Virus record (IMG/VR): IMGVR_UViG_3300045988_030456
Coordinates: 1-50,496 of that record
Direction: 5' to 3' (one strand)
Length of the DNA: 50,496 bases
Source of the DNA: a virus
Position 1 is the stretch's first letter; each line of letters opens with the position of its first letter. A model generated the notes under the pieces. It had not been told where the DNA came from, searched no databases, and saw nothing but the letters and a program-made list of their open reading frames with translations. Positions 1-50,496 of this stretch are shown here, one piece after another. Both the position numbers and the translations under genes were made by a program.

Positions 1-55
1 AATGCATGGTTCTTCCATGAATTATATTTCTCATAGAATTTTTCCTCCGTGAGTT
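1..55. repeat. Terminal overlap: nt 1-55 identical to nt 50442-50496 (circular assembly closure)
   Basis: Direct comparison of both window ends gives 55/55 identity. Joining the ends keeps the reverse-transcriptase ORF in frame. Confidence 0.9.
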
Positions 56-956
56 TCCCGGCTTTCACATCTTTTACCAGTTTTCGAAATTTCTTCTTAT
101 TCTTCCGCTTGTTCTCTCCGGTCAGTTTCCGAATATATTTCCCATCGGCCGTCATATAATGATGAAATCCTAAATATCGCATTCCTTTTCTAAACGGTAT
201 GATCTGTGTCTTTCCGTTCAATTCAAGTCCAAGTGTTTTTAGCATTTCTCTGATACATTCCAAACACCATCTCAAATATTCCTTATCTTGATGAATCAAG
301 TAGAAATCGTCCATATATCTTCCATATTCAGTTATTCCAAGTTCGCCCGTCACCATGCAGTCTACTGCATGAACCATAAGCAAGGCATATACCTGTCCGG
401 CTTGATTCCCGAGTGGCAAGCCAGGATTCTCGCTGCTATCAATCAATGTATGATTCAGCCACGTTGTGTACGGGTCTGGGAAGAAATAATCTACAATATC
501 TTTCAGTATTTCATGATCAATTTCGTAAAAGAAATGTCTTATATCGCATTTCAATATCCATCCGTCTACGCCATGTCTCTGATAGAATGATTCCATGTGG
601 TCCCTTAATCCATCTAATGCATACAGTGTTCCTTTTCCTATTTGTCCAGCAGAATTGTATTTTATAAATACATTCTTCAATTTTGGATGCAGAATGTTGT
701 CACAGAGTATGTGTTGCACTACCTTATCTTTAAACGAACACGATTCAATTACTCTTTGTTTCGGCTCATATATTTCGAACCGGTTATACGGAGCAACTGT
801 ATATGTCTGATTCTCTAACTGCTCTTTTAGGATATTGATTCCGTCTAAAGCGACATTAGAAAATCTTGCAGTGCTGCTATTAAATTTCTTGCCAGACTTA
901 GCTTTTCGATAAGCGTAATACAGATTCCCGTAATCCGTGACAATTTCTTTATCCAT
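1..956 (-). CDS. DGR reverse transcriptase, 5' portion (ORF runs off the window start and continues at 50441..50369)
   Basis: ATG at 956 with an AAAGGAG RBS. The ORF is open to nt 1, so it is absent from the ORF track. My translation reads MDKEIVTDYGNLYYAYRKAK...NSAGQIGKGT...GLPLGNQAGQVYA...GRYMDDFYLIH (YMDD box). It lies adjacent to TR and avd. Confidence 0.9.
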   Translation of the reverse strand, partial: MDKEIVTDYGNLYYAYRKAKSGKKFNSSTARFSNVALDGINILKEQLENQTYTVAPYNRFEIYEPKQRVIESCSFKDKVVQHILCDNILHPKLKNVFIKYNSAGQIGKGTLYALDGLRDHMESFYQRHGVDGWILKCDIRHFFYEIDHEILKDIVDYFFPDPYTTWLNHTLIDSSENPGLPLGNQAGQVYALLMVHAVDCMVTGELGITEYGRYMDDFYLIHQDKEYLRWCLECIREMLKTLGLELNGKTQIIPFRKGMRYLGFHHYMTADGKYIRKLTGENKRKNKKKFRKLVKDVKAGKLTEEKFYEKYNSWKNHA

Positions 957-1049
957 TGGTACTCCTTTATATTTACCTCTATGAGGACGGTCCGTTTCCT
1001 TTTTGTATCTTTCCCGATTTCGGCTTGATGCCTACTCTGACTCCCTGTT

Positions 1050-1123
1050 ATACAGAATGGGCGCACCCCGTGACTGTTGTTGTAGTTATTGTTGTTGACG
1101 TAACCGGACGGAGAAACAACCGC
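1050..1123 (-). repeat. DGR template repeat (TR), non-coding, between avd and RT
   Basis: About 74 nt homologous to VR1 and VR2. In the VR frame it reads TAC GTC AAC AAC AAT AAC TAC AAC AAC AGT CAC GGG GTG CGC CCA. Every TR/VR difference in the 63-nt core falls on a TR adenine. Confidence 0.9.
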
Positions 1124-1149
1124 TTAACGGAAACGAACCTAAAGTGTAT

Positions 1150-1521
1150 TTATCTTTGCCGGTCTTTAGTTCTCCATGCAATAGCCATATGTTTTACATC
1201 AGATACCAACTTTGACCAATATTCCACGCTCTTTTCACTGATAATATTTAGCTCATAGGACATCTCTATGTAGAAAAGTAGTTCATCACAATATGCAATT
1301 GCCTTTGTCTGCATCTCAAGTCGATCTCTTTTATAATTCTTGATATCCGTTCTATTCGCTTCAAAGAGCATTTCATAGATTTCCATTGACTTATTCTGCA
1401 TTTTATCAACAAGTGAAAATCTATATTTTTTTGGATATCGGTTGGCATTGCTGGTCACTTTCAATGTATGGGTGGCCAGTTCCTTCGCTTTTTGAATTAC
1501 TTTCAGATCATTCTCTGCCAT
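1150..1521 (-). CDS. avd: Accessory variability determinant (Avd), four-helix-bundle protein
   Basis: 123-aa helical ORF between the target gene and TR, the canonical DGR position. TAATG overlap with the upstream target stop. Confidence 0.8.
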   Translation of the reverse strand: MAENDLKVIQKAKELATHTLKVTSNANRYPKKYRFSLVDKMQNKSMEIYEMLFEANRTDIKNYKRDRLEMQTKAIAYCDELLFYIEMSYELNIISEKSVEYWSKLVSDVKHMAIAWRTKDRQR

Positions 1522-2120
1522 TAATCATCATCTTCCTCACAAGATTCAAAGATTGAAGAGGAAAAGATACAAACTGGGCGCACCCCGTGACAGTTGCGGC
1601 AGTCATCGTCGCGGACGAAACCGGACGGAGAAACAACCCGAACAAAGGTGTCATCATCATTACAAGCTGTGCTGCTTGGTGTAAGTGTCCACCACCATTT
1701 GCCTGTATTTGGCAAATGTTTTCTATACTTCCGGTATTCATCCACAGAAATAAGCGAAACATAATCTCTACAAGTTCCATATTCCGTCTGACCATCCAAC
1801 GAAAGTAAATTGCGTTCAAATTCGACCAGCGAATCTGTCCCTAATTCGCTTTCAATCTTTTTGCGGAGATCAGTGTTTAACTCATTCCTCAAATCACTGG
1901 ATTTCCAATCGTTGCAATTATCATCAAACTCTCTGTCTCTTCCGTAAAAATCTTCCGAAATTGCAAAATATCCTTTTTCAAGCTTGTCCAACACCAGCCA
2001 CTTAATACCGGCAACCTCAATTGTCTTTCCGATTCCCGGCTTCTGGTATTTTTTTCTTAACTGTTCAAAAACTTCATTAAGATTTTTAAGGTTTTCTCCG
2101 AATTCTTTTAACGTCATCAT
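1521..2120 (-). CDS. DGR target protein 1 (199 aa) with C-terminal variable region
   Basis: ORF track. The C-terminus ...WWWTLTPSSTACNDDDTFVRVVSPSGFVRDDDCRNCHGVRPVCIF contains VR1. Paralogue of the next gene. Confidence 0.85.
   Translation of the reverse strand: MMTLKEFGENLKNLNEVFEQLRKKYQKPGIGKTIEVAGIKWLVLDKLEKGYFAISEDFYGRDREFDDNCNDWKSSDLRNELNTDLRKKIESELGTDSLVEFERNLLSLDGQTEYGTCRDYVSLISVDEYRKYRKHLPNTGKWWWTLTPSSTACNDDDTFVRVVSPSGFVRDDDCRNCHGVRPVCIFSSSIFESCEEDDD
1567..1639 (-). repeat. DGR variable repeat VR1
   Basis: Aligns to TR with an offset of 517 nt. Ten substitutions in the core, all at TR adenines. Shares the GC-rich 3' end GGGGTGCGCCCA. Confidence 0.9.
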
Positions 2121-2132
2121 GTTTTACTCCTC

Positions 2133-2732
2133 CTAAACTTTGGATACAAAGATATTAGATTTTAAGATACAAAATGGGCGCACCCCGAGACTGTAGTAGT
2201 AGCCATTGCAGTTGACGCAACCGGACGGAGAAACAACCGCTACTGAATACTCCCATCCTCTTTCTTTCGTACTCCAAGGTGTGCAAGTCCAGTACCAATC
2301 CGGGAGGTCTTTGTTTACAAGCAGATCATTGTATTCACGTGCTTCGTCAAATGTCAGAGGTCTTACTTTTGTCAAAAGTTTTCCAAATACTTCCTGTCCA
2401 TCAAGTGTTACTAATCCGGCTTCATTTGTGCAAATATTTTCTTTCCCAAATTCTTCAGAAAACTCATTGAGAATTTCGCCCTCACACAGTTCTCTTAATG
2501 ATGATTTCCTGTATTCCGTACAATCATCATCAAATTTCACATCTTCACGATATAAGTTTTCTGTAATAACTACAGTGCAATCTTCTTTCTGTTCCAGTAC
2601 AATGAATCTTCCGATACCTGTATCAAACTTTCCACCAACCGGAATGTCTTTCAGCATCACTTTGTTTTTCCGGTCTTCTTTTTCGATAGTTGCTACTAAG
2701 TTCTTTGCTAATTCCAATACATTACTGCTCAT
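2133..2732 (-). CDS. DGR target protein 2 (199 aa from ATG 2732) with C-terminal variable region
   Basis: ORF track 2133..2807. An internal ATG at 2732 has an AGGAGG RBS. The C-terminus ...WYWTCTPWSTKERGWEYSVAVVSPSGCVNCNGYYYSLGVRPFCIL contains VR2. Confidence 0.85.
   Translation of the reverse strand: MSSNVLELAKNLVATIEKEDRKNKVMLKDIPVGGKFDTGIGRFIVLEQKEDCTVVITENLYREDVKFDDDCTEYRKSSLRELCEGEILNEFSEEFGKENICTNEAGLVTLDGQEVFGKLLTKVRPLTFDEAREYNDLLVNKDLPDWYWTCTPWSTKERGWEYSVAVVSPSGCVNCNGYYYSLGVRPFCILKSNIFVSKV
2167..2240 (-). repeat. DGR variable repeat VR2
   Basis: Aligns to TR with an offset of 1117 nt. Eight substitutions in the core, all at TR adenines. Confidence 0.9.
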
Positions 2733-2833
2733 TATTCTTTTCCTCCTGTTTCTTTCTCCAATATTCATACGGATCCGCATAATGTGGCTTCCGTTTAAAA
2801 TCCTCAATAGCCTGTTCCTGTCTTGTCACAAAG

Positions 2834-28727: not shown

Positions 28728-28808
28728 GTTGCATATCCTCCTCAACGTCTCTTATTAACCGCCTCGTCTGCGGTAGGGATTCAGACAGATGAACCTCTGT
28801 CGGGGTAA

Positions 28809-28899
28809 TCGGGATACACGGAATCGAACCGTGGACATAAGTCTTTTTTCAAAGAGATGATGGATTGTGACTTTTGTTCTACCATTGAACTATATCCCG
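28809..28899 (-). tRNA. tRNA-like gene with canonical acceptor, D and T arms but a roughly 25-nt anticodon loop (non-canonical, possibly non-functional or specialised)
   Basis: Minus strand: CGGGATA-TA-GTTC-AATGGTA-GAAC-A-AAGTC[ACAATCCATCATCTCTTTGAAAAAA]GACTT-ATGTC-CACGG-TTCGATT-CCGTG-TATCCCG-A. The D arm resembles tRNA-Trp. No CCA is encoded. Confidence 0.5.
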
Positions 28900-29312
28900 T
28901 TAGTGGTTGGTGTAAGTGTTCCCTCTATACAGTTCCAACCACTGTTACGGCTATTTGACGGTCAATCTGCATATTGTTCCGTAACTAACTCTATGCAGAA
29001 AAAGGATAGCCGGAAATGAATCCATGCACCATACTGTGCACTATCCTTTGCGGATAAGAATTTATCATATTATATCTTTAGGAGGTAACATAAGATGACG
29101 GTTCCCTAAGTCCGCAAGCTTAAGGGAAAACCTAACGGGCGTTTGACCGCCCTTTAATCAGCATTCCGCTATTAGGTTTAATTGAAAGGAGGTGTATCAA
29201 GAAAAGAAAATGTCCTATGTGATTCACCATGTTTATTGTATAATGTAGAGGTAATAAACTTGTCCCCCGTGATAGAGTTTATCAAGAGCCATTATGTGTT
29301 ATTTAAAACCTT
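28900..29312 (-). ncRNA. Candidate large structured non-coding RNA (about 410 nt), adjacent to the tRNA-like gene
   Basis: No ORF. There are many 6-9-bp helices, for example GTGGTTGG/CCAACCAC, GTTACGG/CCGTAAC, AAAGGATAG/CTATCCTTT with nested TGCAC/GTGCA, AACCTAA/TTAGGTT with nested GGGCG/CGCCC, and ATAAACT/AGTTTAT. Confidence 0.5.
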
Positions 29313-29738: not shown

Positions 29739-30329
29739 TCACACCTCGATTCCTTTCGTTTTCTTTTTGTATTTGTCGTGAATCTCCGATTGAATTTCTG
29801 TGATGTATACCATGTCGTATCCGGTAGATATGAGGTCGTTAATCATACATTCTACAGTTTTTAATTCTTCGCTTACATCCTCTACCAAACATTCCACAAA
29901 CATAGCATCAGCCACATGACCGTTTTCTCTTAGCGTGTGTGCGTACTGTTCGTACACTTCCTTTGTTTCGGATTCCCAATTGTGGTACTCAACAAATCCA
30001 TCTTCTACGGCTTTCTGCTTTGTGCTTTTCCCAACGCTTAACCGTTTGGCCGTTCGCCACGCATCCGGGATAACATTCACTTTCCCCTCAAACGCATCAT
30101 CAATAAGCTGATTGTGATGGTTTATAAAATATCGGCACACTTTCCTATGTTCCAAATTTTCCGCAATGTGCTGGTACTCATGCATCCGCTTAAAGCCTTT
30201 TAAGCCAAGGAAATCAAAGTAGTCCGCAAACTGTCCGTGCATCATAACAGCTCCGATAAACCGTTCGTTGATTTCGGCAAAGATTTCTTTCGGAGTTTTA
30301 ACATCTAGGTTGCTTTTAAAATCAATCAT
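29739..30329 (-). CDS. Ferritin-like / four-helix-bundle protein (196 aa)
   Basis: HGQFADYFDFLGLKGFKRMHEYQHIAENLEHRK is a ferritin/Dps-like pattern. The gene ends with tandem stops TGA TAA. Confidence 0.4.
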   Translation of the reverse strand: MIDFKSNLDVKTPKEIFAEINERFIGAVMMHGQFADYFDFLGLKGFKRMHEYQHIAENLEHRKVCRYFINHHNQLIDDAFEGKVNVIPDAWRTAKRLSVGKSTKQKAVEDGFVEYHNWESETKEVYEQYAHTLRENGHVADAMFVECLVEDVSEELKTVECMINDLISTGYDMVYITEIQSEIHDKYKKKTKGIEV

Positions 30330-33588: not shown

Positions 33589-33622
33589 AAAAAAGAGACC
33601 TTAACAGTTCGTTAAAGTCTCT
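33589..33622 (-). terminator. Rho-independent terminator splitting the island into two transcription units
   Basis: Minus strand: AGAGACTTTAAC-GAACTG-TTAAGGTCTCTTTTTT. Confidence 0.65.
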
Positions 33623-33656: not shown

Positions 33657-34319
33657 TCATTCTGCAAATACCCAATCTTCCGCAAGCATATCTGTCTGAG
33701 GCGGTGTCCAAGGCACTTTATTTTTAGGCGCATAAGGATTTTCTGTCTGTAATCCAGTAGTGTTGATATATATGAACGAATGCGTCATATAATTGAATGC
33801 TTCAATAGTTGTTCTTGCTGTAACTCTGTCGTATTCTTTCACTTCTTCACTTAGTTCAGAATACGGAATCATATCCGGGTGATCTGTAACTCCCTGTTTT
33901 TTCTTTTCTTCCCACCATGCGTTATGCACTGCTTCTGCAATAGTTTCAAGATTGACTTCTGGCGAATACATTTCCAGATAGATTCCTTTACCATTCCAAC
34001 CTTTACGAGCTACCTTAAGTCCTCTTTTTAGATAACGGATAGCATCACCAAATCCAAATGTTGACCGACCGCCAAGAGCACCGCAATTCTCTTCATCAGC
34101 AATCATCCAATCGTCTCTCTGCGTGTGCATAAAAGTATATTCCACTCTCTGCGTTTCACGGATATCAAGAACATCTCCCTGTCCTTTGTCGGAATCCTTT
34201 GGTCTGCAATGAATCATAATCGTCTGCTTATCATTATCCCAACACCAGTATCCGTTTCATCCCGGCAATTTTACTTTCGCACCCTGTTTCATTAATTCAA
34301 ACGCTTCTTTAAAAATCAT
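33657..34319 (-). CDS. Tandem DUF2829 (Tad2-like) protein; the second domain carries an inserted RyR domain; interrupted by an in-frame TGA at 34257-34259
   Basis: ATG 34319 overlaps the upstream stop (ATGA) and has a GGAGGA RBS. It reads MIFKEAFELMKQGAKVKLPG-TGA-NGYWCWDNDKQTIMIHC...DDWMIA, then FGFGDAIRYLKRGLKVARKGWNGKG...[ETIAEAVHNAWWEEKKKQG...IPYSELSEEVKEYDR]...WTPPQTDMLAEDWVF. The track shows only 33657..34217. Confidence 0.7.
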
Positions 34320-34732
34320 AATAAATCCTCCTGTCCGGCTTTCCACTTTGCCAATTCATCACGCATAATTTTCTCCGCTTTTTCTCTATTCATTTCAATC
34401 GGAAACGTTGCTTCAACATGTACTTCATCTCCTATTTTCTCAAAATTAATATCTTTTCTCATAAATGTAAGAATTGGTTCATACATATATTGCTTGGATA
34501 TCTTGTTATATTTTGCATGCAATACATATAGATTACCAATAGCCCAATCACTGTCTATCTCATATTCATCAGTGTCATATTCTTCTACAGAAGCCGTATC
34601 TCCATATAGTTTTGCTCTAATCAAACCATCATTTATCGTTGCACAAATCTGTTCAGCTTTATCTTTATCTAGGCACACTGCATCTATTCCATAATCTGAA
34701 TATTCACCGCTTGTAATCACATAGACTTTCAC
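34316..34732 (-). CDS. Hypothetical protein (138 aa)
   Basis: ORF track. Confidence 0.5.
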   Translation of the reverse strand: MKVYVITSGEYSDYGIDAVCLDKDKAEQICATINDGLIRAKLYGDTASVEEYDTDEYEIDSDWAIGNLYVLHAKYNKISKQYMYEPILTFMRKDINFEKIGDEVHVEATFPIEMNREKAEKIMRDELAKWKAGQEDLL

Positions 34733-34749
34733 GTTTTTACCCCCTCATT

Positions 34750-35070
34750 TCACAGAATTTCTAATTCTTTAAATACTTTCATAATTTTAGGAAACTGAAT
34801 AGCAAACCAGTCAACGATTGTTTCTTCATGTCCGAACTGTTTATAATGTTCAAAGTTTGCCTGTAATCCACTTTCAGCAAGAAAAGCATGTATGATTTCA
34901 TGTCTTAACTGTTTTTTCATAAGTTTTTCAAAATCGCCAACTTCGCTTACATTATTATTTCTGACTTTTATTATGTGCGCTGTATAGTCGCAAAAGCCGT
35001 CAATCGTTTCGTCTTCAAACGCTTCTCTAATTATTTCGTATTCCGTTCCAAGAATATTTACTTTTTGCAT
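34750..35070 (-). CDS. Small HExxH metallopeptidase-like protein (106 aa)
   Basis: QLRHEIIHAFLAESG is a zincin-like motif. Confidence 0.45.
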   Translation of the reverse strand: MQKVNILGTEYEIIREAFEDETIDGFCDYTAHIIKVRNNNVSEVGDFEKLMKKQLRHEIIHAFLAESGLQANFEHYKQFGHEETIVDWFAIQFPKIMKVFKELEIL

Positions 35071-42549: not shown

Positions 42550-43179
42550 TTATTTACCTCTTTTCCTTTCTGTTAGTTCTTCTCCGAACGACTTAATCTT
42601 TACAATGTTTCCTGTACATTCTTCCGGCACCTGTCCGTAAAATAGTACCGTCTCGGGTTCCAATCTTTTCAACATCTCATTATATCCGTCCACGAACAGT
42701 GCTTTCCGCTCCTTGCTGTTCATAATTCCAACACTGGATACTGCTACAGCACCGCCTACTGGCTCCCCATCAAAGCACCACTCAAACGATTCTCTGTCAC
42801 TCCAACTAATTGTAGGTATCACGTCAATACCGTACATCTGCATATATGCACCTATCCAGTGTTTACGGAAGTGGTTGTAAATCTGTAATGCTTTTGGAAA
42901 ATCAGTATAAGTGCTAAAATCTGGTGACATGATAAATCAGAACTGTGAAAGCATGTTTATGTAAGTGTCTGGGCTGTTCCATAATCTTTGAAATTGGTAA
43001 TCGTCAAGAAAGAAATGCACGCCTTTCCCGGCTCTTTTCTTGCATGTCTTAGCTTGGTTGAATCCGATAAACTCGCACGGTTCATATTTTGTAAGTTGTA
43101 TCTCTGGTATTCCGAACTCATTTACAATGTCGAATATCATTCGTTGCTGATTCTCATAATTCATATTTTCTTTATACAT
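42550..43179 (-). CDS. DUF4417-domain protein interrupted by an in-frame TGA at 42937-42939
   Basis: Track ORFs 42937..43197 and 42550..42930 are in the same frame, separated only by TGA TTT ATC. The domain pattern GVHFFLDDYQFQRLWNSPDTYINMLSQF-*-FIMSPDFSTYTDFPKALQIYNHFRKHW...IDVIPTISW is continuous across the stop. Confidence 0.65.
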
Positions 43180-48027: not shown

Positions 48028-49032
48028 TTAATCCAAGTTAATTTTTCCACTCATAAGTTCTTGTAAAAGCGCATCTCTTAATTCCATCAGATATCTATTT
48101 TCCTCAAGATTGAGATAATAGATATGCTGTTTCCACATGTTCAAAATCATTATCAATACACTGGATAACTGTTCCTTTCTGTTGTTTTCGAATTTAATTT
48201 CATTTTTCTTTTTTGATGCTGTGAAATAATCTTGCCGTTCCAACTTTTCAGTACCTAGCTTTTTTAGCAAATCATTTAATCCAGAATCTTTCTGATCTTG
48301 TTTGTACAGTTCAATATCGAATCCCATTCCTTTTGCTATAGATTCATTTAGTGTTAATTTACATGCGTTCTTTTCTCGTGTAATTCTATTTATATCATTT
48401 ACGATGTCCGCATAGCTTCTATGGATATATTCAATCTCTCCAATGTCCAAATAACGGCTTGCAAGAAGCGTATATTTGTTTTCTTTCAATTCTTCAATGG
48501 TTACCGGTTTGCAAAATTCAGGTATATTTTTCCTTTCTTGAATTGCTTCAATGGATTCTTCCATCGTTTCTTCGGTAATCACCTTAAATGTCTTCTTATA
48601 CGTCCTGTTGGTGTGTGCTTTACCGCCATACTGTCCATTCTGTTCACGAACCTCTTCGCTATACTTTCTTCGCAAGTCCACCATTTCTGTTGTTGCAGTG
48701 CTTTTGTTTTTATCCAAAATAATAATGCACGTTCCAATTCCAGTAGATTCAAACATATTATCCGGGCAAATAATCACCGCATCCACCATGTTTTTCTCAA
48801 TTAGATATTTTCTAATATCCATCTCTTCTTTCGTTCCACCACTCATTACAGATGCCGGAAGTAAGAAAACGCATCTATCATTATTTTCTAATCCAGTTAG
48901 AATAAATGCGAAATTTGCATTGCTTTCCGGTGGTACCACATAACAGTCAGAAAAACGTGGCTGAATCTGTGCAAACGCCGGAGCTTTCCATTTCATGTTG
49001 TATGGCGGGTTAGAAATTAACCCTCTTTTCAT
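48028..49032 (-). CDS. N6-adenine DNA methyltransferase, C-terminal part (catalytic NPPY motif plus target-recognition region)
   Basis: MKRGLISNPPYNMKW.... GGGAGGTGG RBS. Its ATG overlaps the stop of the upstream ORF (ATGA). Confidence 0.8.
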   Translation of the reverse strand: MKRGLISNPPYNMKWKAPAFAQIQPRFSDCYVVPPESNANFAFILTGLENNDRCVFLLPASVMSGGTKEEMDIRKYLIEKNMVDAVIICPDNMFESTGIGTCIIILDKNKSTATTEMVDLRRKYSEEVREQNGQYGGKAHTNRTYKKTFKVITEETMEESIEAIQERKNIPEFCKPVTIEELKENKYTLLASRYLDIGEIEYIHRSYADIVNDINRITREKNACKLTLNESIAKGMGFDIELYKQDQKDSGLNDLLKKLGTEKLERQDYFTASKKKNEIKFENNRKEQLSSVLIMILNMWKQHIYYLNLEENRYLMELRDALLQELMSGKINLD

Positions 49033-49541
49033 TTTGCCACCTCCCTAAATTTTCCGTATTTCTCACCTCTACTGATTTTATATGTATGAAAATTTTCTTT
49101 CTGTAACACATCCGCATGATGCACGGTGCATTCAATATTTCTTACTGCCATATTGAATAATAAAAATGGGATTACATTTTCATCAAATTCATACAATTCA
49201 AATTTTTGTTTGTTATTCATGCACCATTTTTGAATTGTCAATGCTCCACTTCCGGCACATAAATCTGTTATTACATCTGCATCTCCAATTAATTTCCCTA
49301 TGAATAATGCAAGACTTTTCGGAGTGTAATCCTGCATTTTTTCTTTTCGATCTGCTAAGTAATACTGGTAGATCATTTGCAACCAGTCTACACTCAAATC
49401 CGTTACCAGATTGCAGAATTCTTCATATTTTTTCTCGTCATTATTTTGTACTGTATCCAATATTCTTTCTGGAAGTGTTTCTATATTTTCTGCACCGAAT
49501 AAAAATTTTGCTTTTTCAGAAAGTTCTTTTAGTTCCATCAT
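49029..49541 (-). CDS. N6-adenine DNA methyltransferase, N-terminal part (AdoMet-binding motif I)
   Basis: VITDLCAGSGALTIQ (motif I) and ELYEFDENVIPFLLFNMAVRNI. It lacks motif IV, which is on the next ORF. Confidence 0.8.
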   Translation of the reverse strand: MMELKELSEKAKFLFGAENIETLPERILDTVQNNDEKKYEEFCNLVTDLSVDWLQMIYQYYLADRKEKMQDYTPKSLALFIGKLIGDADVITDLCAGSGALTIQKWCMNNKQKFELYEFDENVIPFLLFNMAVRNIECTVHHADVLQKENFHTYKISRGEKYGKFREVAK

Positions 49542-49683
49542 TTCACCTCATTTTCTCCTATATTGTGTTTACAAGAACTGTTAGTGCATTTTATCTTTCT
49601 CTTTCCCATATCATCACTTCACCTCGTTCGCCACCTGTAAGCACTGAATCATGTAATCTATCTTTTCTCCTGCGTTCATGGCT

Positions 49684-50250
49684 CTACTCCTTTACTACGC
49701 ATCTACGTTCGCTGATTGCATAATATTTGCCATCGTGTTCAGAACAGTATTTTTTAAGTACTTCTTCTTTCATATCCGAAGTGATAATTGTTCCATTGGT
49801 TTTTTCTTCGTATACTACATTTCTTTTTTCATCCATGATTACTGCATACCAGATGTTTTCCGTCTCAATCGGCTTTTTCTCATGGTCTGCTTTCCACTTC
49901 TTGAGGCTTTCAATAACCTCTTCTGGATGATTGATTGCAAATTCTTCACAGCCACACTCTCCACTTTTTTCATAGGCTGGACAAACATCGCAATTGCTGT
50001 CTTTGCACATTTTTGCATACAGCCTAACAGCTTCTTCCGCACTCATTTCTTCTACTGGTTCAAGCATTTCATCTGTCCAATAGGCGACTTCCATTTCTTC
50101 TATTGCATAACTAGTAATTCCTACACCCGAAATTGTTACCGTCTTTCCTGCAAATTTTTCCATGCTTTTTGTAAGCATATTACTTCCATATATTTCATAC
50201 GCTTTCAAGTCGCTTCTTACTTTTACCTTATCTCCAGCCTTATATTTCAC
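49684..50250 (-). CDS. Hypothetical protein (188 aa; GTG start)
   Basis: ORF track. AGGAGGG RBS. Confidence 0.5.
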   Translation of the reverse strand: MKYKAGDKVKVRSDLKAYEIYGSNMLTKSMEKFAGKTVTISGVGITSYAIEEMEVAYWTDEMLEPVEEMSAEEAVRLYAKMCKDSNCDVCPAYEKSGECGCEEFAINHPEEVIESLKKWKADHEKKPIETENIWYAVIMDEKRNVVYEEKTNGTIITSDMKEEVLKKYCSEHDGKYYAISERRCVVKE

Positions 50251-50366
50251 TTTCTATCCCTCCTAAGCCAAAACTTTCGTTTCTTCTTTTCCTGTTTCTC
50301 TTTCTGTTTTTTAGACCACTCCGCAAGATATTGTTCCTGTTCCTGATCTTCCTGTTCCTGTCGTGT
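50247..50366 (-). CDS. Possible 39-aa charged peptide (GTG start) between the RT and the next gene
   Basis: This is the distal part of track ORF 50247..50459. AAGAGGTGA RBS. VTRQEQEDQEQEQYLAEWSKKQKEKQEKKKRKFWLRRDRK. Confidence 0.25.
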   Translation of the reverse strand, partial: TRQEQEDQEQEQYLAEWSKKQKEKQEKKKRKFWLRRDRK

Positions 50367-50368
50367 CA

Positions 50369-50496
50369 CTATGTCACCTCTTTCATCAATTCCTCTATAT
50401 ACAGATCCATACTGTGAACCAACTTGATACAATTTCCATGCAATGCATGGTTCTTCCATGAATTATATTTCTCATAGAATTTTTCCTCCGTGAGTT
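50369..50496 (-). CDS. DGR reverse transcriptase, 3' end (continuation of 1..956 through the 55-nt overlap; TAG stop at 50369-50371)
   Basis: In-frame continuation ...KFYEKYNSWKNHALHGNCIKLVHSMDLYIEELMKEVT*. The total RT is 1029 nt (342 aa) after removing the duplicated 55 nt. Confidence 0.85.
   Translation of the reverse strand, partial: LTEEKFYEKYNSWKNHALHGNCIKLVHSMDLYIEELMKEVT
50442..50496. repeat. Terminal overlap copy (identical to nt 1-55)
   Basis: See the first feature. Confidence 0.9.

What the first reader, a model, noticed from the sequence alone, without database searches (positions are those of the whole stretch)
33657..34319. Tad2-like tandem DUF2829 protein (second copy with an inserted RyR domain) carries an in-frame TGA exactly where the domain has a conserved Trp
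The gene starts at ATG 34319 with an ATGA overlap with the upstream stop and a GGAGGA RBS. Its first domain reads FKEAFELMKQGAKVKLPG-TGA-NGYWCWD...DDWMIA. The equivalent segment of the second domain in the same protein reads AIRYLKRGLKVARKGWNGKGIYL, so the TGA aligns with the Trp of the G-W-N-G motif. The frame stays open across the stop into track ORF 33657..34217. DUF2829 is the fold of the Thoeris anti-defence sponge Tad2, so this looks like a signalling-nucleotide sponge with an unusual domain architecture (DUF2829 + DUF2829 with an RyR insertion). The TGA could be one of four things: a recent TGG-to-TGA nonsense mutation, leaky UGA read-through by tRNA-Trp, suppression by a phage factor, or regulated production of short and long forms with reinitiation at ATG 34217. 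A second conserved-domain gene in this genome has the same feature (42937). One nearby gene ends in tandem TGA TAA (29739), which is what one expects if UGA is leaky.
Basis: partly seen in the sequence, partly recalled or inferred. Interest (0 to 1): 0.65.

Follow-up and report, generated by a model that had tools for sequence, protein, structure and literature searches.

The report
Nonsense mutation in phage Tad2-RyR gene
A gut phage's anti-defence gene (two Tad2 "sponge" domains, the second carrying a RyR domain) has an ordinary, lineage-private TGG-to-TGA stop mutation at a ligand-binding tryptophan, not a case of genetic-code recoding.

Summary
The in-frame TGA is real. It is codon 21 (34259..34257, minus strand) of a 220-codon gene, and it replaces the Trp of the G-W-N-G loop that contacts gcADPR in solved Tad2 structures. 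It is not recoding. All 77 two-domain relatives fetched read TGG there, and so do both parental haplotypes of this mosaic gene. The other eight Trp codons in the gene are TGG. About 14 genes in the window end in TGA, including this gene and its upstream neighbour. No suppressor tRNA is present. The "second case" (42939..42937, DUF4417) replaces CGA (Arg), not Trp. It is an older allele found in several cohorts that still carry the TGG Tad2. The window therefore holds two independent C:G>T:A nonsense mutations in accessory genes of a complete, temperate, DGR-bearing gut phage whose host is probably a Clostridia member. The Tad2 TGA appears in at least 3 assemblies, two of which differ by a cassette swap, so an assembly error is unlikely. 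The more interesting part is the protein. It is a tandem Tad2 whose second copy carries a RyDEP-like RyR/R12 domain at the beta2-beta5 insertion site. Both modules are known anti-Thoeris elements, and this combination is uncharacterised. The allele is probably null or hypomorphic: rare read-through by tRNA-Trp would restore the wild-type protein, and restart at Met35 would give domain 2 plus RyR alone.

The parts
33657..34319 (-). Complete 220-codon Tad2-Tad2(RyR) gene, including its own TGA terminator at 33659..33657
   Evidence: sequence and translation. (Pfam). (uninterrupted full-length orthologues). (AF2 model with pLDDT 90; Foldseek matches to Tad2 structures at probability 1.0).
34257..34259 (-). 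Premature opal codon (codon 21). The ancestral codon is TGG, equivalent to Trp21 of HgmTad2.
   Evidence: TGG in 77/77 relatives. TGG in both parental haplotypes. W21/N22/G23 of HgmTad2 bind gcADPR, and W21A/N22A markedly reduces binding.
34326..34332 (-). Shine-Dalgarno sequence AGGAGGA, 6 nt upstream of the ATG
   Evidence: sequence.
34086..34319 (-). Tad2-like domain 1 (residues 1 to about 78): a short, SPO1-Tad2-like form without an insertion
   Evidence: two PF11195 stretches. (alignment). (secondary structure: H3-11, E24-28, E33-37, E50-52, H59-66).
34215..34217 (-). First in-frame ATG after the stop (Met35). A possible restart site with no Shine-Dalgarno sequence upstream.
   Evidence: The restart itself is inference only.
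33963..34064 (-). Tad2-like domain 2, N-terminal half (residues about 86-119), with W108-N109-G110
   Evidence: alignment to AcrIIA7/HgmTad2, SPO1 Gp34.65, ModTad2 and SptTad2..
33780..33962 (-). RyR/R12 (RyDEP-like) domain, residues about 120-180, inserted at the beta2-beta5 insertion site of domain 2. It carries the motifs H132-x-x-W135, H145-P and D162-R.
   Evidence: PF02026. (RyR repeats; B. thetaiotaomicron 3nrt and 4n05). (Foldseek matches to 3nrt and 6uag). (the RyDEP paper).
33660..33779 (-). Tad2-like domain 2, C-terminal half (residues 181-220), with W204, T209, D210 and W216
   Evidence: alignment of WTPPQTDMLAEDWVFAE to the HgmTad2 C-terminus..
33594..33622 (-). Intrinsic-terminator-like hairpin (13-bp stem followed by a T run), 35 nt after the gene's stop. 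This gene is the last of its transcription unit.
34332..35070 (-). Two-gene cassette directly upstream: a 106-aa ORF (34750..35070) and a DUF7336 gene (34316..34732). It is present in some relatives and absent in others. It marks the recombinant background on which the TGA arose.
42937..42939 (-). Independent, older nonsense codon (CGA>TGA) inside the DUF4417 gene 42550..43179. Listed because the finding cites it as a parallel.

Best explanation
The gene encodes a composite anti-Thoeris, anti-signalling protein. An N-terminal Tad2 domain is followed by a second Tad2 domain whose beta2-beta5 loop is replaced by a RyDEP-like RyR/R12 domain.

In this phage lineage a single G>A transition changed codon 21 from TGG (Trp) to TGA. 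The genome uses the standard code, so ribosomes mostly terminate after 20 codons. The allele is a recent loss-of-function or strongly hypomorphic variant of a dispensable accessory gene. It is not a recoding signal.

Shown here: the ancestral state is TGG; the TGA is private to this lineage; TGA is the normal terminator in this genome; there is no suppressor tRNA; and the domain identities hold.

Inferred: two minor products may persist. (a) Near-cognate decoding of UGA by tRNA-Trp would insert the original residue and so yield wild-type protein at a few per cent. (b) Restart at Met35, 13 codons downstream, would yield a 186-aa protein with a wrecked domain 1 but an intact domain 2 plus RyR. 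Related phages encode domain 2 plus RyR as a stand-alone 133-aa protein.
For: - **Ancestral codon.** TGG at codon 21 in 77/77 two-domain relatives from IMG/VR, all with uninterrupted ORFs. W21 is at least 90% conserved in the family alignment.
- **Mosaic background.** Nt 1-210 of the gene and the upstream cassette match the L004 type (4 differences, including the TGA). Nt 211-663 are identical to the P0001 type. Both types read TGG.
- **Rarity of the allele.** The exact 186-aa downstream ORF occurs on only 5 contigs, whereas full-length versions make up nearly all of the other ~600 members of the two 90% clusters.
- **No TGA allele elsewhere.** It was not found in IMG/VR, the JGI metagenome contigs or the GTDB genomes.
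- **Standard code.** The eight other Trp codons of the gene are TGG. About 14 minus-strand genes end in TGA, including this gene and the overlapping upstream gene. The 1259-aa and 1034-aa ORFs have no in-frame TGA.
- **No suppressor.** The default ARAGORN run finds no tRNA. The tRNA-like element at 28809..28899 has a 25-27-nt indel-variable 'anticodon loop' without a canonical UCA. It is present in 74/82 relatives, which have no in-frame TGA.
- **The second TGA is separate.** It is CGA>TGA at a variable Arg/Lys/Asp position. It also occurs with intact TGG Tad2 in other samples (L164, L165).
- **The allele is real.** It has the same base in an ENA assembly, an NCBI MAG and the window. The ENA contig differs from the window by a ~700/294-nt cassette swap downstream of the RT gene.
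- **Function.** PDB sequence hits to AcrIIA7/HgmTad2, SPO1 Tad2, ModTad2 and SptTad2. Foldseek probability 1.0 to these structures. W21/N22/G23 are gcADPR contacts. Phage RyR-domain proteins cleave or sequester 2'/3'cADPR.
- **Domain 2 plus RyR alone.** It exists as a stand-alone protein (P0019, 133 aa, 89% identical, 77 members; L031-L033).
- **Precedent.** Natural and selected premature stops occur in phage sponge genes: PaMx41 acb2 and T4 Panoptes escapers.
Against: - No reads were available, so the allele frequency within the sample is unknown. The 5 contigs may all derive from one individual.
- Nothing here measures expression. The allele could be fully null, or leakier than assumed.
- Two nonsense alleles in one viable, circularly assembled genome is slightly unusual. 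My rough estimate is that about 78 SNPs over 17.6 kb to the nearest TGG haplotype would include about 3 nonsense changes under neutrality, so the count is not an excess.
Confidence: 0.85

Rival explanations
1. Adaptive inactivation or attenuation. The stop was selected because an active sponge is costly, or because it triggers a sponge-sensing host defence of the Panoptes type. A UGA that tRNA-Trp can occasionally read would act as a 'dimmer' rather than an off switch. This is a sub-case of the nonsense-mutation explanation, not an alternative to it.
For: Panoptes escapers of T4 carry premature stops and frameshifts in the sponge gene acb2, and PaMx41 naturally has a premature stop in acb2. 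The mutation hits the ligand-contacting Trp. The genome assembles as a circle and so appears viable. In this lineage the nearly invariant Ser207 of domain 2 (HgmTad2 S90 equivalent) is also changed to Pro.
Against: There is only one lineage and no recurrence: none of the 77 relatives has any premature stop in the gene. No host or defence repertoire is known. A neutral or slightly deleterious hitch-hiking mutation explains the data equally well.
Confidence: 0.1
2. Sequencing or assembly artefact: the true base is G (TGG).
For: No reads were inspected. All contigs carrying the TGA may come from the same MetaHIT/Nielsen-2014 material. The gene is a mosaic of two haplotypes, which could also arise from a strain-mixture assembly.
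Against: The base is identical in three assemblies made by different groups (window/JGI, ENA NIEL14 scaffold_366, NCBI UMEN01000230.1). Two of these are distinct haplotypes that differ by a cassette swap. Neither parental haplotype has an A at this site, so chimeric assembly cannot create it. The companion DUF4417 TGA is seen in at least 11 contigs from several cohorts.
Confidence: 0.05
3. Evolved recoding: UGA is decoded as Trp in this phage or host (code 4-like reassignment, a suppressor tRNA or another phage factor), or programmed read-through yields regulated long and short isoforms.
For: The stop sits exactly on a conserved Trp, which is the residue that code 4 or near-cognate tRNA-Trp would insert. 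A tRNA-like element exists in the genome.
Against: No orthologue shares the TGA. TGA terminates about 14 genes here, including this one. Long ORFs lack in-frame TGA. The only other in-frame TGA replaces Arg. The tRNA-like element has no usable UCA anticodon, and it occurs in relatives that have no in-frame TGA. Rfam finds no SECIS or other recoding element. No release-factor-like or tRNA-modifying gene appears in the Pfam annotations of the called genes.
Confidence: 0.02

Closest known systems
Tad2 / DUF2829 sponges (SPO1 Gp34.65, PDB 8SME/8SMF; HgmTad2 = AcrIIA7, PDB 8KBI-8KBM; ModTad2 9EIB; SptTad2 8WJD)
   Same: Both halves match PF11195. Sequence and predicted fold match the solved Tad2 structures. 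The G-W-N-G loop and the C-terminal W..QTD..DW motif of domain 2 align residue for residue with the gcADPR pocket of HgmTad2. An extra domain sits in the same beta2-beta5 position where HgmTad2 carries its cyclic-dinucleotide-binding insertion.
   Different: This protein has two Tad2 domains in one chain, whereas the solved Tad2s are single domains that form homotetramers. The insertion is a whole RyR/R12 domain rather than the small HgmTad2 insertion. Domain 1 lacks a clear T92/D93 equivalent. In this lineage domain 2 has Pro at the S90 position. In this genome the gene is interrupted at W21.
RyDEP family of phage RyR/R12-domain proteins (mycobacteriophage DyoEdafos RyDEP; bioRxiv 10.64898/2026.05.28.727677)
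   Same: The insertion matches PF02026, the family that paper defines as RyDEP. It contains H-x-x-W, H-P and D-R motifs, with the H-to-D spacing (17) expected for RyDEP H75/W78/H100/D117 (my motif mapping). Family members either hydrolyse 2'/3'cADPR or bind it with nanomolar affinity.
   Different: Here the R12 repeat is embedded inside a Tad2 domain rather than standing alone as a dimer. The W-to-H loop is about 12 residues shorter. I could not obtain the DyoEdafos RyDEP sequence for a direct alignment. Tad2 and DUF2829 are not mentioned in that paper or in its held supplements.
Naturally truncated phage sponge genes (acb2 of Pseudomonas phage PaMx41; T4 acb2 Panoptes escapers)
   Same: A premature stop codon in a phage nucleotide-sponge gene within an otherwise viable phage.
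   Different: A different sponge family. No selective agent is known here. The stop here is an opal codon at a Trp codon, so near-cognate read-through would restore the wild-type residue.
Stop-codon-recoded phages (TGA>Trp, code 4-like; TAG>Gln, code 15-like)
   Same: Only the superficial feature of an in-frame TGA at a Trp position in a gut phage.
   Different: Recoded phages carry many in-frame stops across genes, usually together with suppressor tRNAs, and the recoding is shared by relatives (my own knowledge of the literature). None of this holds here.

Membership tests
Tad2 / DUF2829 (PF11195) | Significant match to the family profile | tested here: met
   71.1 bits against a cut-off of 25, in two stretches. 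phmmer hits to AcrIIA7, SPO1 Gp34.65, ModTad2 and SptTad2 at E 3.5e-10 to 1.3e-7.
Tad2 / DUF2829 (PF11195) | [quoted passage not shown] | tested here: met
   AF2 model of P0001 (the TGG orthologue, 1 residue different) has pLDDT 90.4. Foldseek probability 1.00 and target-normalised TM 0.53-0.76 to 8smf, 8kbj, 8wjd and 9eib.
Tad2 / DUF2829 (PF11195) | gcADPR pocket residues (HgmTad2 W21/N22/G23, W87, S90/T92/D93) | tested here: inconclusive
   Domain 2 has W108/N109/G110, W204, T209 and D210, but P207 in place of Ser. Domain 1 has (W21=TGA)/N22/G23, but its C-terminal motif is shortened, with T66 and no clear Asp.
Tad2 / DUF2829 (PF11195) | Homotetramer that sequesters gcADPR or other signals and rescues phage from Thoeris | not testable with these tools
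   Requires biochemistry and phage assays.
RyDEP / RyR R12 domain (PF02026) | Significant match to the family profile and fold | tested here: met
   29.6 bits against a cut-off of 27.4, which is marginal. phmmer E 6.8e-12 to the Bt-hRyR chimera and 5e-6 to the B. thetaiotaomicron 'putative ryanodine receptor'. Foldseek probability 1.0 to 3nrt and 6uag.
RyDEP / RyR R12 domain (PF02026) | Ligand and catalytic residues H75, W78, H100 and D117 | tested here: inconclusive
   H132-x-x-W135, H145-P and D162-R are present, with matching H-W and H-D spacing. The mapping is by motif only, because the RyDEP sequence was not retrievable. The paper shows that these residues do not distinguish hydrolases from sponges.
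RyDEP / RyR R12 domain (PF02026) | Cleavage or tight binding of 2'cADPR/3'cADPR | not testable with these tools
   Requires TLC or EMSA assays as in the RyDEP paper.
Stop-codon recoding (TGA=Trp) phage | In-frame TGA widespread in the genome and shared by relatives | tested here: not met
   Only two in-frame TGAs that interrupt recognisable genes were found in 50 kb. One of them is at an Arg codon. The Tad2 TGA is shared by 0 of 77 relatives, and the DUF4417 TGA by 0 of 59 IMG/VR relatives scored (it does recur in other public assemblies).
Stop-codon recoding (TGA=Trp) phage | Suppressor tRNA (anticodon UCA) or other recoding machinery | tested here: not met
   The default ARAGORN run finds none. 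The Rfam tRNA hit at 28809..28899 has an aberrant 25-27-nt loop and no canonical UCA.
Stop-codon recoding (TGA=Trp) phage | TGA not used as a terminator | tested here: not met
   About 14 minus-strand genes end in TGA, including this gene and its upstream neighbour.
Selenocysteine insertion | SECIS element after the UGA, and Cys/Sec in orthologues | tested here: not met
   No Rfam hit. Orthologues have Trp.

The most novel reading that the evidence does not exclude
The opal codon at Trp21 is not a dead allele but a selected 'dimmer'. Because UGA is misread mainly by tRNA-Trp, the phage would still make a few per cent of exactly wild-type three-module (Tad2 / Tad2 / RyDEP-like) protein, plus some domain 2 + RyR protein from a Met35 restart. 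That lowers sponge dosage enough to avoid a sponge-sensing host defence while keeping residual anti-Thoeris activity. A weaker but likelier component of the same reading is that the intact protein is a natural fusion of two different anti-Thoeris mechanisms: a Tad2 sponge and a RyDEP-type cADPR binder or glycosidase.
Probability: 0.07. Interest if true: 0.55.

Novelty: new variant of a known kind. Interest (0 to 1): 0.27.

Why it matters
The headline feature, the in-frame TGA, does not matter much. It is a private nonsense mutation, and showing this removes a false lead for stop-codon recoding or programmed read-through.

The gene itself has some value. It joins two Tad2 domains to a RyR/R12 domain of the kind reported in 2026 to cleave or sequester Thoeris cADPR signals. 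The R12 domain sits exactly at the insertion site that HgmTad2 uses to bind cyclic dinucleotides. This architecture is abundant in human-gut Clostridia phages: several 90% clusters together hold roughly 900 member sequences. It is not discussed in the Tad2 or RyDEP papers I could search.

The architecture offers a natural test of whether sponge and hydrolase modules cooperate within one protein. The TGG and TGA sister haplotypes also form a ready-made natural knock-down pair for that test.

Tried and rejected
- **Genome-wide code 4 or code 15.** Stop-to-stop ORF totals under alternative codes were uninformative. I rejected this on the long ORFs and on TGA terminator usage.
- **Suppressor tRNA.** The default ARAGORN run was negative. 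Rfam found a tRNA-like element. Folding it, running ARAGORN with introns and comparing 82 relatives showed an aberrant, indel-variable loop and no UCA. Rejected as a suppressor.
- **Other copies of the TGA allele.** Exact-pattern scans of IMG/VR, the JGI metagenome contigs and the GTDB genomes found nothing. The allele was found only by exact-protein look-up.
- **Isolated-phage relatives.** The INPHARED collection has only weak DNA hits, to Ruminococcus gnavus phage RG-TP1 and Dorea phage DO134P1.
- **RyDEP sequence for direct alignment.** tblastn with the 65-aa insertion gave nothing at E <= 1e-3 and only marginal hits at E <= 10, without DyoEdafos among those listed.
- **DGR involvement.** The DGR template and variable repeats lie at about 1050-2240 and share no similarity with the Tad2 gene. 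The change is also not at a template adenine. Rejected.
- **A third broken gene as evidence of general decay.** The split N6-methyltransferase is split in the same way in about 35 relatives down to 68% identity, so it is a stable arrangement. Rejected as evidence of decay.
- **TGA-TAA tandem stop as evidence of leaky UGA.** It is 1 of about 14 TGA-terminated genes, which I judge to be chance level.
- **Mention of a Tad2 fusion in the RyDEP paper's supplements.** None found.
Full report
**1. Observation**

On the minus strand an ATG at 34319 overlaps (ATGA) the TGA stop of the upstream ORF 34316..34732. An AGGAGGA sequence lies 6 nt upstream. Codon 21 is TGA (34259..34257), and the frame then runs open to TGA 33659..33657, giving 220 codons. 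The first ATG after the stop is codon 35 (34217), the start of the 186-aa track ORF.

With the stop read as Trp, Pfam reports Tad2-like PF11195 in two stretches (71 bits, cut-off 25). It also reports RyR PF02026 at residues 124-178 (29.6 bits, cut-off 27.4).

**2. The TGA is private to one lineage**

A scan of IMG/VR returned 80 loci, 77 of which encode the two-domain protein.
- All 77 read TGG at codon 21 and have uninterrupted ORFs.
- In a 50-sequence family alignment W21 is at least 90% conserved.
- The protein database holds a 220-aa orthologue, P0001, that has W21 and differs otherwise only at S43F.

The exact 186-aa downstream ORF occurs on only 5 contigs (NCBI, JGI, ENA). Full-length forms make up nearly all of the roughly 600 other members of the two 90% clusters. 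Degenerate DNA patterns specific for the TGA allele found nothing in IMG/VR, the JGI metagenome contigs or the GTDB genomes.

The two TGA contigs that could be read (ENA NIEL14-1_SAMEA2042107 scaffold_366 and NCBI UMEN01000230.1) are 99.99-100% identical to the window around the gene.

**3. History of the allele**

The gene is a mosaic.
- Nt 211-663 are identical to the P0001 haplotype (L163-L168).
- Nt 1-210 differ from the P0001 haplotype at 11 sites. They match instead the L003/L004/L006/L008/L009/L030 haplotype, with 4 differences including the TGA.
- That second haplotype also supplies the two-gene cassette immediately upstream (34332..35070: a 106-aa ORF and a DUF7336 gene).

Both parental haplotypes read TGG. 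The G>A change therefore arose on, or after, this recombinant background.

**4. Not recoding**

- The other eight Trp codons of the same gene are TGG.
- About 14 minus-strand genes end in TGA, among them this gene, its overlapping upstream neighbour and the 408-aa minor capsid gene.
- The 1259-aa and 1034-aa ORFs contain no in-frame TGA.
- The default ARAGORN run reports no tRNA.
- Pfam annotations of the called genes around the whole genome show no release-factor-like or tRNA-related gene.

Rfam does report a tRNA at 28809..28899 (52.8 bits), so I followed it up. Its acceptor, D and T arms are canonical, but the anticodon 'loop' is 25-27 nt long. It occurs in 74 of 82 relatives, with invariant arms and an indel-variable loop. 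It has no UCA in a canonical loop context, and ARAGORN's calls on it are inconsistent between relatives. Because it is present in relatives that lack any in-frame TGA, it cannot be the explanation for the TGA.

**5. The 'second case' is a different event**

The TGA at 42939..42937 does interrupt a single DUF4417 domain (E 2e-60). The ancestral codon, however, is CGA (Arg) in 23/23 close relatives and AAG, GAT or TCT in more distant ones.

This allele occurs on at least 11 contigs from several cohorts, in two upstream contexts. It also occurs in genomes whose Tad2 gene is intact (L164, L165). It is therefore older than the Tad2 mutation and independent of it.

Both changes are C:G>T:A transitions of the classical nonsense type (CGA>TGA and TGG>TGA). 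The window differs from the nearest TGG haplotype by about 78 SNPs over 17.6 kb. By my rough estimate, one or two nonsense changes among that many is not an excess.

The TGA-TAA tandem stop at 29739 is 1 of about 14 TGA terminators, which I judge to be chance level.

**6. Real allele or error**

I could not inspect reads. The same base appears in three assemblies made by different groups. The ENA contig differs from the window by a cassette replacement downstream of the RT gene (about 700 nt in the window against 294 nt) while being identical elsewhere. At least two assembled haplotypes therefore carry the TGA. Neither parental haplotype has an A at this site, so chimeric assembly cannot create it. 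I put the chance of an artefact at about 5%.

**7. What the gene encodes**

*Tad2 domains.* The closest solved structures by sequence are AcrIIA7/HgmTad2, SPO1 Tad2 (Gp34.65), ModTad2 and SptTad2. An AF2 model of P0001 (pLDDT 90.4) matches these Tad2 structures with Foldseek probability 1.0.

In HgmTad2, residues W21, N22 and G23 of the beta1-beta2 loop contact gcADPR, and the W21A/N22A mutant markedly reduces binding (10.1101/2023.11.15.567273). Domain 1 of the window protein aligns without gaps to this region, so the TGA replaces the equivalent of W21. Domain 2 keeps W108/N109/G110, W204, T209 and D210. In this lineage it has Pro at the nearly invariant Ser207, the HgmTad2 S90 equivalent.

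*RyR insertion.* The insertion lies between beta2 and beta5, where HgmTad2 carries the insertion that binds cyclic dinucleotides. Across the family this site holds several alternative cassettes.

A 2026 preprint (PMC13232231) shows that phage RyR/R12-domain proteins (RyDEP, PF02026) either hydrolyse 2'cADPR/3'cADPR or sequester them with nanomolar affinity. They use residues H75, W78, H100 and D117. The insert here has H132-x-x-W135, H145-P and D162-R, with matching H-W and H-D spacings. This mapping is by motif only, because I could not retrieve the RyDEP sequence.

The intact protein is therefore most plausibly a composite anti-Thoeris device. Its ligand range cannot be predicted, because Tad2 homologues also bind His-ADPR, N7-cADPR, cyclic dinucleotides and cCMP/cUMP.

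*Context.* The gene is the last of its transcription unit: a 13-bp-stem terminator follows it at 33622..33594.

**8. Consequence of the stop (inference)**

Most ribosomes should release a 20-residue peptide. Two minor routes could give protein.
- Near-cognate decoding of UGA by tRNA-Trp is the usual mode of opal leakiness in bacteria (my own knowledge). It would insert the original residue and so give wild-type protein.
- Restart at Met35, 39 nt downstream and without a Shine-Dalgarno sequence, would give a 186-aa protein lacking helix 1, strand 1, the W-N-G loop and strand 2 of domain 1, but with domain 2 and RyR intact.

Domain 2 plus RyR exists naturally as a stand-alone 133-aa protein: P0019 (89% identical, 77 members) and loci L031-L033. 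A restart product could therefore retain activity.

Natural and laboratory-selected premature stops in sponge genes are documented: PaMx41 acb2 and the Panoptes escapers of T4. Selected loss is thus a reasonable but untested sub-hypothesis.

**9. Genome context**

- The window has an exact 55-bp terminal repeat, so it is a complete circular assembly of about 50.4 kb.
- It is a temperate siphovirus-like phage with a large serine recombinase, a cI-like repressor, a GH25 lysin, terminase and head and tail genes.
- It carries a diversity-generating retroelement.
- Relatives of the protein in GTDB genomes sit in Tyzzerella, Lachnospiraceae and other Clostridia. The only isolate-phage DNA hits are to Ruminococcus gnavus and Dorea phages. 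A Lachnospiraceae-type host is therefore likely, by inference.

**10. Verdict**

The TGA itself is ordinary. The residual interest lies in the uncharacterised Tad2-Tad2(RyDEP-like) architecture and in the natural TGG/TGA haplotype pair.

Noticed in passing
window 28809..28899 (-), inside the non-coding gap 28746..29312: A tRNA-like element that the default ARAGORN run misses but Rfam RF00005 scores at 52.8 bits. Its acceptor, D and T arms are canonical, but its anticodon loop is 25-27 nt long. It is conserved in 74/82 relatives, with invariant arms and an indel-variable loop. It sits in an unusually long (~570 nt) intergenic gap in the head-gene module. Its function is unknown, and it is not an opal suppressor.
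   Followed up: partly
window ~1030..2810 (-), plus an RT gene running across the window ends (956..1 and ~50441..50366): A diversity-generating retroelement. It comprises bAvd (1150..1521), an RVT_1 reverse transcriptase, one template repeat (~1050..1124) and two variable repeats. The variable repeats lie in the 3' ends of two paralogous DUF6273 genes (1521..2120 and 2133..2807). All template/variable mismatches that I read off by eye fall at template adenines.
   Followed up: partly
window 42550..43179 (-), stop at 42939..42937: The DUF4417 gene is split by a CGA>TGA nonsense mutation, with an ATG only 2 codons after the stop (42930). The allele occurs on at least 11 contigs from several cohorts and in two upstream contexts. 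It is therefore a tolerated, circulating allele, possibly a functional two-piece protein produced by termination-reinitiation.
   Followed up: partly
window 48028..49541 (-): An N6-adenine methyltransferase is encoded as two ORFs: 170 aa (Pfam profile positions 6-121) and 334 aa (positions 130-306). They overlap by ATGA, and the second has its own Shine-Dalgarno sequence. The same split is present in about 35 relatives down to 68% identity, and the gene is fused in relatives at 58% identity. It is a stable split gene rather than a fresh pseudogene.
   Followed up: yes
window 1..55 and 50442..50496: An exact 55-bp terminal direct repeat. The window is a circularly closed assembly of a complete phage genome of about 50.4 kb.
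   Followed up: yes
window 34332..35070 (-) and 33657..34319 (-): A two-gene cassette (106-aa ORF plus DUF7336) is present or absent between the DUF1653 gene and the Tad2 gene in otherwise >99% identical genomes. The recombination junction falls inside the Tad2 gene at about nt 200, so the gene is a mosaic of two haplotypes.
   Followed up: partly
window 49552..50248 versus L176 8028..8322: The window and the ENA contig of the same TGA lineage are 100% identical over more than 20 kb. They differ by a cassette replacement downstream of the RT gene: about 700 nt with a 188-aa ORF in the window, against 294 nt with three small ORFs (including a DUF7666 ORF) in the ENA contig.
   Followed up: no
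window 33699..33701 (-), codon 207 of the Tad2 gene: Ser207 is at least 90% conserved in the family and is equivalent to the ligand-contacting S90 of HgmTad2. It is Pro (CCT) in the window and in the P0001 haplotype, but Ser (TCT) in the close relative L001. This is a second change in a binding-pocket residue in this lineage.
   Followed up: no
alignment A1, columns ~120-200 (residues ~118-186 of the protein): Across tandem-Tad2 homologues the beta2-beta5 site of domain 2 holds at least four unrelated alternative insertions, or none. The RyR domain is one of them. The flanking Tad2 core stays 60-95% identical. This looks like a cassette-swapping hot spot that may set ligand specificity.
   Followed up: no
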